Sequence record: KC801932
Source of the DNA: Escherichia phage Lw1
Reading direction: 5' to 3' (one strand)
Length of the DNA: 64,000 nucleotides
Each line of letters starts with the position of its first letter. Within the stretch, counting starts at the first letter, position 1. Shown one piece after another: positions 31,498-48,153 of the stretch. The position numbers and the translations under genes were made by a program. The notes under the pieces are model-generated. The model made no database searches. It saw nothing but the letters and a program-made list of their open reading frames with translations, and was not told where the DNA came from.

Positions 31498-32047
31498 ACA
31501 TACTCCCAGACATATCCAAAAATATAATGTAACATATCGCCCTTTGACTGTTGGTGATGTCGGTGACACGGATAACTTCATTTTAGAAGGGAAGGTGTTC
31601 AAGCATCAACGCGATTATGTTTATCTTATGGCCCTGTTTGATACAATCAATAAGGATACTGTAGATCTGCAAATCAAATGTCCTGAATGTGGGGAACTGA
31701 TTAAGTTCACTCTGAATCGTCATCATATCCTGGTGGATGAATTCGAAGAAAAACTGTTTGGTAATGAAATTAAGATTTCGGTCGAACCACATACAACCGG
31801 AAAAGAAGAGTTACCCGAACTGATTAAGTTTGTTGTGATCGACGGGGAACAAATCTTATGGGACGATTGTAAGGAGTCCGAGAAAGAGGCTGTACTTGAT
31901 AGCATTGACTATCAGGTGTTTAAATCGATAAATACCGCTCTGGATAAGCCAGCAATGGTCGCAAACATTCCGGTTGGGTGTTCGTGTGGCTACAAACACA
32001 TAGTCTCTCTACGTGGCTTAGAGGCGTTTTTAAAGGTGGTTGGATAA
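31490..32047 (+). CDS. 26: Putative baseplate hub subunit (gp26-like)
   Basis: 185 aa with CPECG and CSCG cysteine pairs; position before gp25. Confidence 0.4.
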   Translation: MRKHTPRHIQKYNVTYRPLTVGDVGDTDNFILEGKVFKHQRDYVYLMALFDTINKDTVDLQIKCPECGELIKFTLNRHHILVDEFEEKLFGNEIKISVEPHTTGKEELPELIKFVVIDGEQILWDDCKESEKEAVLDSIDYQVFKSINTALDKPAMVANIPVGCSCGYKHIVSLRGLEAFLKVVG

Positions 32048-44750: not shown

Positions 44751-45809
44751 TTAAAGTCCAGTAAACGCAACGATAATCTGATAGTGGTCATCGAAGAACT
44801 CACCACGTTTCTGTTTGACTTCGTGCATAGGCATCCAGAACGCCTCTGCTGCATCGTCAGCGCCTCCCATAATACGGGGCAGACTTCCATCATTGTTAGG
44901 CTCTAACTTGATGTATTGCGCTACAGTCGGTTTTGAGAAGTGTACGGAACGCTTCGGATGGTCGAACAGCATAGAATTGCGGATTGAACCACGGATAACC
45001 TTTTCAGGAACCTTGATCCGAACTTCTTCGAGCAATTCGCGGATCGCACAATCCAGGAACGTTTCATTCGCGTTTTTGTGTCCACCTGGCAGGGCTAATG
45101 CGCCTTTACCTGGTGCAAACTTACGACGAATCACTAACACATGGTTATTACAAACAACCACGCTATCACCAGTACAACAGTTTAACGCGTCGGGGTATGG
45201 GTACGCTTTGAACTTCTCCAGTTCATCTTCCCATTTCTCGAACTCGTAGTACAAGCGCCAGAACGTATCGGTCATCATCCATCCGTTAAGAGAACCCACG
45301 ACAGCAGCAGGAACATAACGGGCGATCTTCTCGTCCCATCCATTTTTATGTAAAAAGATGGTTGGACGCAGGTCGGTAGCAGATAAATCTTTGCCGTCAA
45401 CCTTAACCGGATCAACCGGAACATGAGTCCATCCGAACGCTTTAAGCCAGTACGAATCAGCATCTTTTTCGTAACCGTAGATCGCGATGTTATCGCCTTT
45501 GGTTTCGTCGATTGCTGTACGAACAGAGGTTTTCCATTTTTCTTCATTGTAAAGGTAATCTGGAATCGGCTTGAATTGCACACGGGCTACATCTTCGTAT
45601 TTGAACTCAGACAGTAACCAGCTTGTAATCATACGTTCCCGTTCGGTTGCCGTCAGCGGGTTTAAAACGTTAGGGTAAGCATAAGCTGAACCCAGGAGGA
45701 TATAAACGGTCTTCGACTCTTCCAGTGCTTTACGCACCATTGCCGCGTGACCATTATGGAAGGGTTGGAATCTGCCAATTACGACAGCTTTATCAAATTT
45801 GTATTTCAT
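44751..45809 (-). CDS. natV: Bifunctional NMN adenylyltransferase / Nudix hydrolase (NadM-Nudix, NatV-like)
   Basis: N-terminal GRFQPFHNGH nucleotidyltransferase motif; C-terminal Nudix box GGHKNANETFLDCAIRELLEEV; start at ATG 45809 with GGAG RBS. Confidence 0.8.
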   Translation of the reverse strand: MKYKFDKAVVIGRFQPFHNGHAAMVRKALEESKTVYILLGSAYAYPNVLNPLTATERERMITSWLLSEFKYEDVARVQFKPIPDYLYNEEKWKTSVRTAIDETKGDNIAIYGYEKDADSYWLKAFGWTHVPVDPVKVDGKDLSATDLRPTIFLHKNGWDEKIARYVPAAVVGSLNGWMMTDTFWRLYYEFEKWEDELEKFKAYPYPDALNCCTGDSVVVCNNHVLVIRRKFAPGKGALALPGGHKNANETFLDCAIRELLEEVRIKVPEKVIRGSIRNSMLFDHPKRSVHFSKPTVAQYIKLEPNNDGSLPRIMGGADDAAEAFWMPMHEVKQKRGEFFDDHYQIIVAFTGL

Positions 45810-45956
45810 AACGTGCTCCACGTTTAAAGGGTAATCATAAAACAGACGCAATAATCAATACACCAAGCAAACCGCCAATAAAGCCGAAGAATAGCGAAAT
45901 GAAGATAGATAAGATGATCTGTTTTATGTTCATTATAGTATTCTCGTTCTAAGAAT

Positions 45957-45982
45957 CAAGCCCCCAGTGCGGGGGCTTTAAA
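45957..45982 (-). terminator. Hairpin terminator after SPFH gene
   Basis: Minus-strand aaagcccccgcactgggggctt stem-loop. Confidence 0.45.
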
Positions 45983-45985
45983 ATC

Positions 45986-46912
45986 TTATTTACGGGAATC
46001 GAAAATCACTTTACCAGCGTAATCCGAACCCATGACAGTCTGAGGTACACCACCTTTATAACGGGTAGAGTAGTTCATCTGTACATCCAGTTCTTTCCAG
46101 CGGATCATTTCTGGGGTAATTGTGCGTTGCAGTACGGCGTTAGCCTCCGCTTCTTTCTTCGCTGCGTACAGTTTAGCATCAGCATCACGTTCGTTGGCAA
46201 TCGCATCGTTTTCACGCGCCTGACGATTTGCTTCCGCTTGTTTTACCTGTTGCTGTGAAGTCTGTTCGACTTTTGCCAGTTCCGCACGAGCGGCGTTAAC
46301 CTGTTCTTCACGAATTTTCGTGTTAGTTACCTGTTCCATGATAACATCCGGCAGGGTGATATCCTGCAAGAATACCTGTTTCACGGTGTAACCGTAAGGA
46401 CGCGCATACTCTTCGACTTCCTGTTGAATTGCGGTCTGCAACTGGTTCTGGATCTTAGCATCAAACAGATCCTGTGCTTTTGGAACCGATTTGCCGAACT
46501 CGCGAACGGTTGACAGCAGTTTTTCGGTTACATACTTATCCAGTGCCTGTTCCTGGTCTCCCGCGTTGATGCGGTTGATAGGCGCTTTGTTACCGTCAAA
46601 TTGCAGCATAACGGTCATATCAACAGTGGATTTAAACTTATCCTGTGAAGGAACCTGCAATTTATCGAACTTCTTCGCAATGTCTTTCGTGCTGAAAGTA
46701 TCGAAATCAGCCAGCGGGTTTACGATATGGAAACCAGGCAGTACAGGTTTCGGAGAAACCTTACCCATGAAGGTCTGAGTTTTGACCGTGCCGTCCTGTA
46801 CTACTGTAAAGGAGTTCGGAACCAGCCACAGTGCGGCTACTACGCCCAGAGCGATCAGAGTGGTTTTCTTCGGGTTGTTCAGGATAGTATTCATATTCAT
46901 AGTATGTCTCAT
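45986..46912 (-). CDS. SPFH / band-7 (HflK/C, stomatin-like) membrane protein
   Basis: N-terminal TM helix, SPFH core, long Ala/Glu/Gln coiled-coil C-terminus typical of HflK/C. Confidence 0.65.
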   Translation of the reverse strand: MRHTMNMNTILNNPKKTTLIALGVVAALWLVPNSFTVVQDGTVKTQTFMGKVSPKPVLPGFHIVNPLADFDTFSTKDIAKKFDKLQVPSQDKFKSTVDMTVMLQFDGNKAPINRINAGDQEQALDKYVTEKLLSTVREFGKSVPKAQDLFDAKIQNQLQTAIQQEVEEYARPYGYTVKQVFLQDITLPDVIMEQVTNTKIREEQVNAARAELAKVEQTSQQQVKQAEANRQARENDAIANERDADAKLYAAKKEAEANAVLQRTITPEMIRWKELDVQMNYSTRYKGGVPQTVMGSDYAGKVIFDSRK

Positions 46913-46976
46913 TTAAGTTTATGTTTCAATTCGATAGTTATTCTATCATCACCATTCAGCTTGTCAAATACTTTTT

Positions 46977-47360
46977 TTAAGAAAGTTTTGTCAGCTTGTA
47001 AATCGTTTGATAGCACAAGCCTTTTATCTCGTCCAGGATGTTCTTCAATGAACTATCAACTGCGTCGTAGATTTCTTCGGCTTCGGCGGCTATTTTACGG
47101 AGATACGCTACCGTGTCAAGCACATTTTCAACTTTTAATACGGGTTTGTACCTTCCGGTAATGCCTATATGGATTTCGGTGAACTTATCGACCAGATCCT
47201 GCATATCTTCGTAAAACCCTTCATATGCTTTATGCTGTGAGTATGAACCAGTCGCAAAGTGTGCGCTGTGCATATACGTAACAGACATTAGGCATGTGCC
47301 GATAAAGGCATCGATCTTACTTGTGGTATCGCGTTCTGTAATTTCGTTAAACGTCTGCAT
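46977..47360 (-). CDS. Hypothetical protein (127 aa)
   Basis: ORF; helical. Confidence 0.4.
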   Translation of the reverse strand: MQTFNEITERDTTSKIDAFIGTCLMSVTYMHSAHFATGSYSQHKAYEGFYEDMQDLVDKFTEIHIGITGRYKPVLKVENVLDTVAYLRKIAAEAEEIYDAVDSSLKNILDEIKGLCYQTIYKLTKLS

Positions 47361-47370
47361 CTTTCATCCC

Positions 47371-47685
47371 TTATGAACGATGAATAGAAGCGAATTCAGT
47401 TGCTACCCTAAGCCCTAAGCGTTTGCATTCAGGTTCAGATTTACACTGTTTCTGCTGCCATTTTCGTTCCATATAATTATAGAAAAGTTCACTTGTATTT
47501 ACGCTGGGAGGGATGGTGTCTAGATACACCTGTAGCGCTGCATTGATGTAGTAGTCGAATTCTTTCGGTACGACTGAATCATCTGCGTGTGATGCTGGAG
47601 ACAAGATTAACAAACCAAACATCAGCGCTTTGGATATGCGTTTAATGTTCATAAGCAATTTCTCTACGTGCTTACGGATCACCAA
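47371..47685 (-). CDS. Hypothetical secreted protein (104 aa)
   Basis: N-terminal signal peptide (LLILSPASHA). Confidence 0.4.
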   Translation of the reverse strand: MVIRKHVEKLLMNIKRISKALMFGLLILSPASHADDSVVPKEFDYYINAALQVYLDTIPPSVNTSELFYNYMERKWQQKQCKSEPECKRLGLRVATEFASIHRS

Positions 47686-47712: not shown

Positions 47713-47737
47713 CAAAAAAGGGGCAATAAGCCCCCTT
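47713..47737 (-). terminator. Rho-independent terminator (aagggggcttattgcccctttttt on minus strand)
   Basis: GC stem followed by T-run downstream of minus-strand tk operon. Confidence 0.5.
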
Positions 47738-47760: not shown

Positions 47761-48153
47761 TCAGGTTATGTCATACCAGCATAAGCTACGCTCATATGCG
47801 CGGATCTTGTTGGCGTTTTCGATGTTTTCATCCCACCCAATTACACCAGCTTTCATCCGGCGCAATTCCTGACGCATCTTTTCACGAACTTTTGAATCTA
47901 TGCGCTTCTTTGCAATTTCGAGCATAACGGAAATGTCACCATGTGCTTTGTTACCGTCGCGGTTCACGTTCTTATCAAACCGGATATATGCGCAACCTGA
48001 TTTGTGTTTCCAATTGGTTGTATACCAACGTAAACCATCAGGGCTTTCCCCGTGTTGTGCATAATACTGTGAAAATGCTTTTGTCTCTTCGATCTGTTCG
48101 ATAGAGGACTTATCACGGGCTGGAACATATTTGTTACGGTAAGTACGGCTCAT
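47761..48153 (-). CDS. Hypothetical protein (130 aa)
   Basis: ORF downstream of tk. Confidence 0.4.
   Translation of the reverse strand: MSRTYRNKYVPARDKSSIEQIEETKAFSQYYAQHGESPDGLRWYTTNWKHKSGCAYIRFDKNVNRDGNKAHGDISVMLEIAKKRIDSKVREKMRQELRRMKAGVIGWDENIENANKIRAYERSLCWYDIT

What the first reader, a model, noticed from the sequence alone, without database searches (positions are those of the whole stretch)
45986..46912. SPFH/band-7 (HflK/C-like) membrane protein encoded by the phage
A 308-aa protein with an N-terminal TM helix, SPFH core and long Ala/Glu-rich coiled coil resembles HflK/HflC, which regulate the FtsH protease. A phage copy could modulate host membrane proteolysis or membrane microdomains. 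A 32-aa hydrophobic micro-ORF (45835-45933) lies directly downstream.
Basis: partly seen in the sequence, partly recalled or inferred. Interest (0 to 1): 0.45.

Follow-up and report, generated by a model that had tools for sequence, protein, structure and literature searches.

The report
Phage SPFH membrane-scaffold gene, known, function open
This is a real, strongly conserved phage gene for a membrane-anchored SPFH (band-7) scaffold protein that public records have annotated since 2006, that is not specifically HflK/C-like, and whose role in infection is still unknown.

Summary
ORF 45986-46912(-) encodes a protein with a TM anchor, an SPFH core, a long Ala/Glu/Gln-rich helix and a conserved tail (Pfam Band_7, 57.5 bits against a cutoff of 23.6). 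The conserved start is probably M5 (46900), giving 304 aa.

The window is an RB16-like T4-type phage. RB16 already annotates this gene as SPFH/band 7, and a 2006 paper tabulated the domain in RB43, 44RR and Aeh1. The family occurs in 722 of 50,697 phage records, including T5 (T5.080, 76% identical), and evolves under dN/dS of about 0.07-0.10. T5.080 knockdown had no fitness effect in a CRISPRi-ART screen.

"HflK/C-like" is only partly right. No HflK or HflC model matches. The family profile aligns end to end with QmcA (96%) but not with HflK (3.7%). Structure searches hit every cage-forming SPFH protein about equally. Charge bias and lipobox-bearing relatives predict a periplasm-facing domain, as in HflK/C. 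The common "lipoprotein" label is wrong for this protein.

The 32-aa micro-ORF is a real conserved gene in this lineage, but its link to the SPFH gene is not statistically supported.

Best reading: an early-expressed, accessory, periplasm-facing SPFH cage of about 24 subunits with an unknown client.

The parts
46940..46967 (-). Sigma-70 early-type promoter for the SPFH gene: TTGACA-16-TAGAAT with TGn extended -10 and an upstream A-tract
   Evidence: Consensus scan gives 11 of 12 matches. The element is conserved in RB16, CfP1, RB43, L006 and L008 upstream regions but is not evident in JC221. Activity is inferred, not measured.
45986..46900 (-). SPFH/band-7 protein CDS, most probable form (304 aa plus stop); the longest ORF extends to 46912 (308 aa)
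   Evidence: ORF list; Pfam Band_7 57.5 bits; phrog_200 E=1.5e-79; RB16p130 and Miller_00141 annotated as 915 nt; conserved start; dN/dS 0.07-0.10.
46814..46873 (-). N-terminal signal-anchor TM helix (residues 14-33 in 308-aa numbering), preceded by Lys-Lys
   Evidence: AF2 secondary structure and hydropathy/charge analysis. Over 32 homologs there are 128 K/R before the TM and 55 after it, and none has a lipobox.
46355..46810 (-). SPFH alpha/beta core (residues 35-186), containing the invariant VPSQDK and FGK...AQDL motifs
46121..46348 (-). CC1-type wall helix (residues 189-264, 76 aa), Ala/Glu/Gln-rich
   Evidence: AF2 model; composition; segment length in the family is quantised at 76, 87 or 98 aa.
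46061..46114 (-). CC2-type helix (residues 267-284), following the conserved LQ.TITPEM..W hinge
   Evidence: AF2 model; conservation; compared with the CC1-CC2 architecture described in PMC12624060.
45989..46060 (-). C-terminal tail (residues 285-308): low pLDDT in the monomer model but sequence-conserved (GGVPQTV.G); candidate cap-forming segment
   Evidence: pLDDT below 50 for residues 286-308; nearly invariant G287, V289, P290, T292, V293 and G295. The cap role is inferred by analogy with solved cages.
45958..45978 (-). GC-rich 8-bp hairpin just after the SPFH stop codon (AAGCCCCC-loop-GGGGGCUU), with no U-tract
   Evidence: Free energy -19.1 kcal/mol, z=-4.2. Stems are conserved while the loop differs between relatives, and JC221 has one compensatory C-G to U-A change. 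The T-poor tail makes it a weak terminator or a 3' stabiliser (inference).
45932..45959 (-). Second promoter-like site (TTGATT-16-TATAAT; TTGACA in relatives) whose -10 hexamer overlaps the micro-ORF ATG; probable promoter for the NMNAT/Nudix gene
   Evidence: Scan; annotated as a promoter in phage KP27; conserved except in JC221.
45835..45933 (-). 32-aa single-TM micro-protein gene (SxxxSxxxGxxxG and GxxxG helix face)
   Evidence: Open in all 12 relatives inspected. Variable columns by codon position are 9/2/13. JC221 has an in-frame 3-nt indel and a TGA to TAA stop change. A GAG lies 9 nt upstream in all relatives. Annotated as a CDS in Roth23 and UPEC03. Motifs.

Best explanation
The gene encodes an accessory phage inner-membrane scaffold of the SPFH superfamily.

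Shown:
- It is a bona fide SPFH protein with the full cage-former layout: TM anchor, SPFH core, long wall helix, second helix and a conserved tail.
- It belongs to a family carried mainly by phages.
- It is under strong purifying selection.
- It is shared among unrelated virulent phages.

Inferred:
- It is transcribed early from its own sigma-70-type promoter.
- It inserts N-in/C-out, so the SPFH domain and helices lie in the periplasm.
- It self-assembles into a closed homo-oligomeric dome of roughly 24 subunits on the periplasmic face of the inner membrane.
- The dome fences off a membrane patch and the host or phage membrane proteins inside it, changing their access to proteolysis or their lipid environment.

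By analogy with QmcA, HflK/C and prohibitins, the leading candidate client is the FtsH-type membrane protease. The client is not identified. The benefit is conditional, because the T5 ortholog is dispensable on a laboratory host.
For: Domain and fold:
- Pfam Band_7 at 57.5 bits and an AF2 model at pLDDT 79.6.

Oligomeric wall:
- The helix aligned to residues 189-264 is 76, 87 or 98 aa long in 25, 6 and 1 of 32 homologs, i.e. steps of exactly 11.
- The CC and tail residues are highly conserved.
- The published regression of subunit number on CC1 length (y=0.1782x+10.22, PMC12624060) gives about 24 subunits for 76 aa.

Topology:
- K/R counts are 128 before the TM and 55 after it over 32 homologs.
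- In the wider family 76 members have more K/R before the TM than after it and 17 have the reverse. Nine of 113 relatives carry lipoprotein signal peptides, which oblige export.

Selection and spread:
- dN/dS is 0.07-0.10.
- 722 phage records carry it, across T4-like, T5-like, ~90 kb, Aeromonas and Vibrio phages.

Stand-alone cassette:
- It has its own promoter and a following hairpin.
- Neighbours differ between lineages.
- It is absent from T4 at the same site.

Accessory status: T5.080 is scored 'Not Fit' in CRISPRi-ART (PMC11879866, supplementary file 16).

FtsH prior: SPFH1, SPFH3 and prohibitins all interact with FtsH-type proteases (PMC2636767; PMC12048511).
Against: - Oligomerisation, topology, timing and any client are predictions; nothing here tests them directly.
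- The profile does not align with HflK, so the HflK Arg191-FtsH contact cannot be assessed.
- No consistent partner gene across lineages points to a client.
- The subunit estimate extrapolates a regression from other families and depends on AF2 helix boundaries.
- Dispensability in T5 means any effect on an essential protease such as FtsH must be subtle or host-specific.
- The promoter call is a consensus match only, and the number of such matches in the region is no higher than in shuffled sequence.
Confidence: 0.45

Rival explanations
1. It is a membrane stabiliser. The SPFH assembly acts like bacterial flotillins or the PspA-linked SPFH proteins. It rigidifies or repairs the inner membrane and preserves proton-motive force during DNA entry, long latent periods or lysis inhibition, without enclosing a specific client.
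For: - In T4-like phages the gene sits next to the rI antiholin and rI.-1 in every lineage checked.
- SPFH proteins are tied to envelope-stress responses (PMC8581546 abstract).
- No conserved partner gene exists.
- Dispensability on a lab host fits a stress-conditional role.
Against: - T5-like, ~90 kb and T7-like carriers have no rI neighbour, so the rI synteny may simply reflect a hyperplastic insertion site.
- The envelope-stress SPFH example retrieved here (B. subtilis YdjI, PMC8581546) acts from the cytoplasmic side with PspA, whereas this protein is predicted to be periplasmic.
Confidence: 0.2
2. It is a superinfection-exclusion or anti-defence shield. An early periplasm-facing cage either covers an inner-membrane component that other phages need for DNA entry, or blunts membrane-targeting abortive-infection effectors.
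For: - It has the profile of classic exclusion and counter-defence genes: early promoter, membrane location, dispensable in the lab, strongly conserved, and horizontally shared among competing virulent coliphages at 76-79% identity between T4-like and T5-like copies.
- It lies beside an NAD-salvage NMNAT/Nudix gene.
Against: - There is no PADLOC hit, although that library holds defence rather than anti-defence models.
- The literature searches run here turned up no SPFH protein with such a role.
- Chromosomal copies in Morganella and Providencia sit in ordinary metabolic neighbourhoods, not in defence islands.
Confidence: 0.15
3. It is a true HflK/C mimic. The phage protein co-assembles with host HflK/C, or replaces it, and directly reprogrammes the FtsH-HflKC holoenzyme.
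For: - The predicted orientation matches HflK/C (PMC10434171).
- The predicted subunit number of about 24 matches the 24-mer HflK/C cage.
Against: - No HflK or HflC NCBIfam match.
- hhalign gives 3.7% to HflK and only a 45-column local hit to HflC, against 96% full-length to QmcA.
- Identity to the HflK/C structures is 13-18%.
- It is a single gene, not a heteromeric pair.
- It lacks HflK's long N-terminal extension; the TM begins at residue 80 in HflK and at about residue 14 here.
Confidence: 0.07
4. It is a lipoprotein, as PHROG 200 and many GenBank/RefSeq records label it.
For: - phrog_200 'lipoprotein' matches at E=1.5e-79.
- Nine of 113 distant relatives do carry lipobox-type signal peptides.
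Against: - The protein contains no cysteine at all.
- None of 32 close homologs has a lipobox and 29 of 32 have no Cys.
- The N-terminal hydrophobic segment is about 20 residues long and preceded by KK, which is typical of a signal anchor.
Confidence: 0.01

Closest known systems
RB16p130 / RB43ORF139c / T5.080 (PHROG 200): the same phage gene family
   Same: The product is 99.7% identical to the RB16 protein, and the DNA is 97.9% identical over 1.4 kb. It is 76% identical to T5.080. The layout and conserved motifs are the same. The SPFH domain was tabulated in 2006 for RB43, 44RR and Aeh1 (PMC1524935).
   Different: Nothing of substance; this window is another isolate of a known gene. No member has an assigned function, and a June 2026 paper calls its presence in phage genomes unclear (PMC13239085).
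E. coli QmcA (YbbK), p-stomatin / SPFH1 subfamily
   Same: It is the best sequence relative among solved structures (phmmer E=7e-6) and among the three E. coli paralogs tested, HflK, HflC and QmcA (hhalign 96%, 255 columns end to end). It shares the TM-SPFH-CC-tail architecture and forms a homo-oligomeric cage (PDB 8z5g, 26 identical chains).
   Different: QmcA faces the cytoplasm (PMC10434171), whereas the phage protein is predicted to face the periplasm. qmcA is paired with the NfeD gene ybbJ, and no NfeD gene is near the phage gene. Identity is only about 20-25%.
E. coli HflK/HflC (SPFH3), regulator of FtsH
   Different: The phage has a single gene rather than an obligate paralog pair. No HflK or HflC model matches, and the profile match to HflK is negligible. 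FtsH binding is untested.
Prohibitins and bacterial p-prohibitins (SPFH4 of Hinderhofer et al. 2009)
   Different: Sequence similarity to prohibitins is marginal (phmmer E 0.03-0.06). Eukaryotic prohibitins are PHB1/PHB2 heteromers. The SPFH4 subfamily models were not available to test.
Other virus-encoded SPFH proteins (Vibrio phage pVa5, Rhizobium phage Pasto, Streptomyces phage StarPlatinum, giant viruses)
   Same: They share the fold and overall length (Foldseek E 1e-17 to 1e-12 against BFVD). This shows that virus-borne SPFH genes are common.
   Different: Identity is only 14-22%, so these are separate acquisitions or very old divergence. None has a known function either.

Membership tests
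SPFH / Band 7 superfamily (Pfam PF01145) | Score above the Pfam Band_7 gathering threshold | tested here: met
   57.5 bits against a cutoff of 23.6, E=2.3e-15, residues 46-220.
SPFH / Band 7 superfamily (Pfam PF01145) | Alpha/beta SPFH fold | tested here: met
Cage-forming SPFH proteins (HflK/C, QmcA, prohibitin, erlin, stomatin, flotillin) | N-terminal membrane anchor, SPFH1/2, long CC1, CC2, C-terminal tail in that order | tested here: met
   TM 14-33, core 35-186, helix 189-264, helix 267-284, conserved tail. The architecture is as described in PMC12624060.
Cage-forming SPFH proteins (HflK/C, QmcA, prohibitin, erlin, stomatin, flotillin) | Assembly into a closed ring or dome of 20 or more subunits | not testable with these tools
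   Only monomer prediction is available. Indirect support comes from helix length quantised in 11-residue steps and a highly conserved CC and tail.
HflK / HflC (SPFH3) | Match to the HflK or HflC family models | tested here: not met
   There is no relevant NCBIfam hit at E<=0.1. hhalign probability is 3.7% to E. coli HflK, and 77% to HflC over 45 N-terminal columns only.
HflK / HflC (SPFH3) | Two adjacent paralogous genes forming a hetero-oligomer | tested here: not met
   The gene is single in the window and in every related locus examined. E. coli has hflK-hflC in tandem.
HflK / HflC (SPFH3) | Periplasm-facing SPFH domain (N-in/C-out) | tested here: inconclusive
   It is predicted to be met, from positive-inside bias (128 against 55 K/R) and from lipoprotein-type relatives (9 of 113). 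There is no experimental topology.
HflK / HflC (SPFH3) | Binding of the FtsH periplasmic domain (HflK Arg191 to FtsH 62-64) | not testable with these tools
   The contact is described in PMC12048511. No usable alignment to HflK exists to locate an equivalent residue, and no complex prediction is available.
p-Stomatin / QmcA (SPFH1) | Closest sequence similarity to stomatin-type SPFH proteins | tested here: met
   hhalign 96.2%, E=2.7e-9, 255 columns to QmcA. phmmer E=7e-6 to 8z5g_A.
p-Stomatin / QmcA (SPFH1) | Operon with an NfeD-family gene | tested here: not met
   The neighbours are rI.-1 (DUF5856), the 32-aa micro-ORF and NMNAT/Nudix. None matches NfeD in Pfam, whereas qmcA is followed by ybbJ.
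p-Stomatin / QmcA (SPFH1) | Cytoplasm-facing SPFH domain | tested here: inconclusive
   The opposite orientation is predicted. QmcA's orientation is taken from PMC10434171. This rests on prediction only.
p-Prohibitin (SPFH4, Hinderhofer 2009) | Single gene, no NfeD, N-terminal TM, non-cytoplasmic orientation, similarity to prohibitins | tested here: inconclusive
Bacterial lipoprotein (the PHROG 200 / RefSeq label) | Signal peptide ending in a lipobox with an invariant Cys | tested here: not met
   There is no Cys anywhere in the protein. No lipobox occurs in 32 of 32 close homologs. Only distant relatives have one.
NfeD (as a possible identity for the micro-ORF) | TM segment(s) plus a C-terminal OB-fold NfeD domain | tested here: not met
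   The micro-ORF is 32 aa, a single hydrophobic helix with no soluble domain. It has no Pfam, PHROG, NCBIfam or PADLOC hit.

The most novel reading that the evidence does not exclude
The phage SPFH protein builds a periplasm-facing cage. In the RB16/KP15 lineages it does so together with the co-transcribed 32-aa glycine-zipper TM micro-protein. The cage captures a specific inner-membrane machine, either FtsH or a DNA-entry or holin-related component. This would protect phage membrane proteins, prolong lysis inhibition, or exclude competitors. If true, it would be the first functional assignment for any virus-encoded SPFH protein, and a naturally minimal homo-oligomeric SPFH system in model phages (T5, RB16).
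Probability: 0.1. Interest if true: 0.6.

Novelty: already known. Interest (0 to 1): 0.3.

Why it matters
The function of SPFH scaffolds is poorly understood even in E. coli. Here a single-gene, strongly conserved version sits in about 1.4% of sequenced phages, including the model phage T5. Purifying selection is strong (dN/dS about 0.07-0.10), yet the gene is dispensable in the laboratory. That marks it as a conditionally important accessory gene, the class that has repeatedly turned out to be exclusion, counter-defence or host-takeover functions.

Three practical points follow:
- The 'lipoprotein' label in RefSeq and other phage annotations of this gene is wrong for this protein and should read 'SPFH domain membrane protein'.
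- The HflK/C analogy should not be used to infer FtsH regulation without a test.
- A 32-aa membrane micro-protein gene is missing from the RB16, Miller and KP27 records examined; Roth23 and UPEC03 do annotate it.

Tried and rejected
1. PADLOC scan of the SPFH protein, the micro-ORF and rI.-1 gave no hits.
2. NCBIfam gave no relevant match for the SPFH protein or the micro-ORF.
3. The 'lipoprotein' label is rejected for this protein because it has no Cys and no lipobox.
4. The afdb50 fold library was unavailable.
5. The micro-peptide was too short for the search for homologous proteins. tblastn against the phage collection found nothing, probably because of the low-complexity filter. An unfiltered local tblastn found it only in the Pseudotevenvirus/Slopekvirus/JC221 group.
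6. The 'prohibitin' hit in the CRISPRi-ART paper was a text match to 'prohibiting'. A full-text search for 'T5.080' found no paper.
7. I first took the family to be a sharply discrete clade. The exhaustive HMMER scan showed a smooth gradient of ~300-aa relatives down to 25% identity, with 22, 144 and 578 clusters at E<=1e-30, 1e-10 and 1e-3, so I withdrew that claim.
8. I tested whether a small TM ORF downstream of the SPFH gene is a recurrent partner. It appears in 3 of roughly 10 lineages: the window group, the T7-like L058 (stop-overlapping 30-aa peptide) and an Aeromonas phage (pilin-like 75-79 aa). The background rate after long ORFs in the same sequences is 12%, giving P of about 0.11, which is not significant.
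9. A Fourier test for heptad or hendecad hydrophobic periodicity in the long helix was uninformative.
10. The rI synteny as a functional clue is weakened because non-T4-like carriers lack rI, and T4 shows that the site is a variable insertion point.
Full report
**What is there.** The minus-strand ORF 45986-46912 is present exactly as described: 308 codons with an ATG start. It scores 57.5 bits on Pfam Band_7 against a gathering cutoff of 23.6 (E=2.3e-15) and E=1.5e-79 on PHROG 200.

An AlphaFold2 model built from 32 diverse homologs has mean pLDDT 79.6. It shows a TM helix (residues 14-33), an alpha/beta core (35-186), one uninterrupted 76-residue helix (189-264), a second helix (267-284) and a disordered tail. 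Residues 189-284 are 17% Ala, 12% Glu and 10% Gln.

There is one correction. RB16 and Miller annotate a 915-nt CDS. Relatives share the start MN[ML]N but not the four preceding codons, and a GAG lies 7 nt upstream of the ATG at 46900. The product is therefore probably 304 aa.

**Where the window comes from and what is already known.** The 1.4-kb region is 97.9% identical to Escherichia phage RB16 and 90-95% identical to RB43, Miller, CfP1 and IME-CF2. This makes the window a Pseudotevenvirus, a T4-like phage that is not one of the T-evens. RB16 annotates the gene as 'putative SPFH domain-containing protein/band 7 family protein'. The SPFH domain of RB43ORF139c, 44RRORF098c and Aeh1ORF064c was tabulated in 2006 (PMC1524935). 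A June 2026 paper still states that the reason the domain occurs in a phage genome 'remains unclear' (PMC13239085). The identification is thus not new, and the function is open.

**Distribution and selection.** tblastn finds the protein in 722 of 50,697 phage records. These include Klebsiella, Enterobacter, Cronobacter and Citrobacter T4-likes, Aeromonas and Vibrio phages, ~90-kb Salmonella phages (7-11, SE131) and, most numerous, T5-like phages. Phage T5's copy is T5.080, annotated only as a conserved single-TM protein.

Copies in T4-like and T5-like phages, which are otherwise unrelated, are 76-79% identical in protein while synonymous sites are near saturation. dN/dS is 0.07-0.10. In a scan of one genome per bacterial species, only Providencia chromosomes carried a copy in an ordinary bacterial neighbourhood (54% identity; LysR, racemase, bestrophin-like and PTS genes; no NfeD or FtsH nearby), and a homolog search found near-identical proteins on large Morganella contigs. 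The other loci in that scan, apart from one weak partial match that was not examined, were whole phage genomes or phage replication modules.

An exhaustive HMMER scan of 1.84 billion representatives found 22, 144 and 578 clusters at E<=1e-30, 1e-10 and 1e-3, with identity falling smoothly to about 25%. The phage clade is therefore the core of a small wider family rather than an island. One relative at 50% identity lies in a ~39-kb T7-like phage contig.

**Which kind of SPFH protein.** No NCBIfam model matches, including the HflK and HflC equivalogs. Among solved structures, phmmer ranks QmcA first (E=7e-6) and the prohibitins next (E about 0.03). hhalign of the family profile against E. coli proteins fetched here gives these results:

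| E. coli protein | hhalign probability | Aligned columns |
|---|---|---|
| QmcA | 96.2% | 255, end to end |
| HflC | 77% | 45, N-terminal only |
| HflK | 3.7% | 45 |

**Topology.** By the positive-inside rule (established knowledge), the flank with more Lys and Arg stays in the cytoplasm. Across 32 homologs there are 128 K/R, counting the N-terminal amine, before the hydrophobic segment and 55 in the 15 residues after it. In 113 wider relatives the bias is the same in 76 and reversed in 17. Nine have lipoprotein-type signal peptides ending in a lipobox Cys, which can only place the domain outside the cytoplasm.

I therefore predict N-in/C-out with the SPFH domain in the periplasm. This is the orientation of HflK/C and the opposite of QmcA (PMC10434171; PMC2636767). 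A single gene with no NfeD partner and a non-cytoplasmic domain matches the 'p-prohibitin' SPFH4 layout of Hinderhofer et al. 2009, but I could not test membership. The protein has no cysteine, and none of 32 close homologs has a lipobox. The 'lipoprotein' label from PHROG 200 and RefSeq is therefore wrong for this protein. It probably derives from the lipobox-bearing distant members.

**Evidence for an oligomeric wall.** The segment aligned to helix 189-264 is 76 aa in 25 homologs, 87 aa in 6 and 98 aa in 1, which are steps of exactly 11 residues. Eleven residues is three turns of a slightly under-wound helix (established knowledge), so these insertions keep the same face of the helix in register. 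That is expected if the helix packs side by side with neighbours, as CC1 helices do in solved cages (PMC12624060).

The helix, the LQ.TITPEM..W hinge and the GGVPQTV.G tail are among the most conserved parts of the protein. This is unusual for a passive linker. The published regression of subunit number on CC1 length (y=0.1782x+10.22) gives about 24 subunits for 76 aa, and about 26 and 28 for the longer variants. That figure is an extrapolation.

**Expression signals and context.**
- A TTGACA-16-TAGAAT site with a TGn extended -10 and an upstream A-tract lies in the 64-nt spacer after rI.-1. It is conserved in the close relatives but not evident in JC221.
- After the stop codon comes an 8-bp GC hairpin (-19.1 kcal/mol, z=-4.2). 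Its stems are conserved while its loop differs between relatives, and JC221 has one compensatory C-G to U-A change. It lacks a U-tract, so read-through is likely (inference).
- In T4-like phages the order tk, rI antiholin, rI.-1 (DUF5856), SPFH, then usually NMNAT/Nudix, recurs. An Aeromonas phage differs: there tk and one small gene precede the SPFH gene and the antiholin lies about 3 kb downstream.
- T4 itself goes straight from rI.-1 to mobD.5. In T5-like, ~90-kb, ~152-kb and T7-like carriers the neighbours are unrelated.

The gene therefore behaves as a self-contained cassette in a variable region.

**Experimental data on the family.** In the CRISPRi-ART transcriptome-wide screen of T5, the T5.080 guides were scored 'Not Fit', meaning no detectable fitness effect on the laboratory host (PMC11879866, supplementary file 16). 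[quoted passage not shown] I did not verify that this protein belongs to the same family.

**The micro-ORF.** The 99-nt ORF 45835-45933 is intact in all 12 relatives inspected. Variable columns fall 9/2/13 by codon position. The most divergent relative, Yersinia phage JC221, differs by an in-frame 3-nt indel and a TGA to TAA stop change, yet keeps the peptide C-terminus FGFIGGLxGVLIIASVL over variable third positions. A GAG 9 nt upstream of the ATG is invariant. Roth23 and UPEC03 annotate it as a CDS, while RB16, Miller and KP27 do not.

I conclude that it is a real gene for a single-pass membrane micro-protein with an SxxxSxxxGxxxG / GxxxG face. A conserved promoter-like site has a -10 TATAAT that overlaps the ATG. 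Transcripts from that site would lack the start codon, so the micro-ORF would have to be translated from SPFH-promoter read-through RNA (inference). JC221 keeps the ORF but not that promoter.

The micro-ORF is absent downstream of the SPFH gene in T5-likes, ~90-kb phages, L052 (a ~167 kb T4-like metagenomic contig), L054 (Morganella phage vB_Mm5) and the Providencia chromosomes. Unrelated small TM ORFs follow the SPFH gene in a T7-like phage (30 aa, TAATG overlap) and in an Aeromonas phage (pilin-like). However, 12% of long ORFs in the same sequences are followed by such an ORF, so 3 of roughly 10 lineages gives P of about 0.11. A functional SPFH-micro-protein pair is possible but not supported.

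**Most likely mechanism, and how sure.** I commit to an early, accessory, periplasm-facing homo-oligomeric SPFH cage that encloses a patch of inner membrane and modulates the proteins inside it (confidence about 0.45). FtsH is the leading candidate client only by family analogy. The rivals are:

| Rival reading | Confidence |
|---|---|
| Client-independent membrane stabiliser | 0.2 |
| Superinfection-exclusion or anti-defence shield | 0.15 |
| Genuine HflK/C mimic | 0.07 |
| Lipoprotein | about 0.01 |

Shown here: domain identity, fold class, conservation, distribution and absence of a lipobox. Shown by others: dispensability of the T5 ortholog. Inferred: topology, oligomeric state, timing and client.

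**Verdict.** The feature is already known and annotated. Its interest is modest and rests on the unexplained, strongly selected presence of a minimal SPFH scaffold in many virulent phages.

Noticed in passing
window 44751-45809 (-): A bifunctional NMN adenylyltransferase/Nudix (NadM-type) gene lies directly downstream. Pfam matches NUDIX and CTP_transf_like. NCBIfam PRK05379-type models match at E=1e-78 but below the equivalog cutoffs. It is an NAD-salvage gene that travels with the SPFH gene in many T4-like phages and is absent from T4 at this site.
   Followed up: partly
window 46977-47360 (-) and 47371-47685 (-): rI.-1 (DUF5856) and the rI antiholin lie immediately upstream of the SPFH gene. 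PHROG and RefSeq label rI.-1 a 'starvation-inducible transcriptional regulator', which looks like an unverified transferred name.
   Followed up: no
window 47761-48153 (-): A 130-aa ORF between tk and rI matches phrog_7774 (unknown function) at E=1e-85 and has no Pfam hit.
   Followed up: no
window 47717-47737: A GC-rich hairpin reads as terminator-like on both strands. It sits between the 130-aa ORF and rI. Miller annotates a terminator at the equivalent place.
   Followed up: no
L046 3968-4930 (Providencia heimbachae chromosome); P0121 (Morganella morganii): Morganellaceae chromosomes carry a 54% identical copy of the phage SPFH gene in an ordinary metabolic neighbourhood, next to a bestrophin-like channel gene. 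This is either a domesticated phage gene or the bacterial source of the phage family.
   Followed up: partly
L053 356-2976 (152-kb phage contig): In a ~152-kb phage the SPFH gene is preceded by a TelA (toxic anion resistance) gene and a PRTase_3 gene with one uncharacterised ORF between them, and is followed, after a 117-aa ORF, by a cell-wall hydrolase gene. This is a Ter-type stress-module context not seen in the other lineages.
   Followed up: no
L058 4942-5034 (T7-like 38.8-kb contig): A 30-aa single-TM ORF (MNGLTLLGAVCLWLFVVWAMTRDGDPPAYP) starts with an ATG that overlaps the stop codon (TAATG) of a lipobox-type SPFH homolog (50% identity). The layout looks translationally coupled. The peptide is unrelated in sequence to the window's micro-ORF.
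   Followed up: partly
L051 3975-4214 (Aeromonas phage 60AhydR15PP): The gene after the SPFH gene encodes a 75-79-aa protein with a type IV pilin-like N-terminus (FTLIELMV...). This matches the 2006 report of an 'N-terminal methylation motif' ORF (44RRORF097c) next to the SPFH ORF098c.
   Followed up: no
L045 (178,077-bp 'Flagellimonas marina' contig); P0002 ('K. pneumoniae plasmid', 174,256 bp); P0033 ('Enterobacter asburiae', 177,325 bp): Contigs of whole-phage-genome size (174-178 kb) of this phage group are deposited as bacterial contigs or plasmids. This is probably contamination or carrier-state phage DNA in bacterial assemblies.
   Followed up: no
OR847704.1 (hit H83): A 1,903-bp record named 'Listeria phage LM 4-11-1' carries a T5-like copy of this Gram-negative phage gene (78% identity). 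It is probably mislabelled.
   Followed up: no
L055 2887-3084 and L056 2402-2860 (E. coli K-12): In E. coli, hflKC is followed by the small membrane-protein gene yjeT (DUF2065), and qmcA is followed by the NfeD gene ybbJ. Membrane-protein genes directly after SPFH genes are thus a familiar layout, even though the test here found no significant excess in phages.
   Followed up: partly
window, near 32,000: GC skew and AT skew change sign around 32 kb (positive before, negative after). This is consistent with a switch of the predominant coding strand.
   Followed up: no
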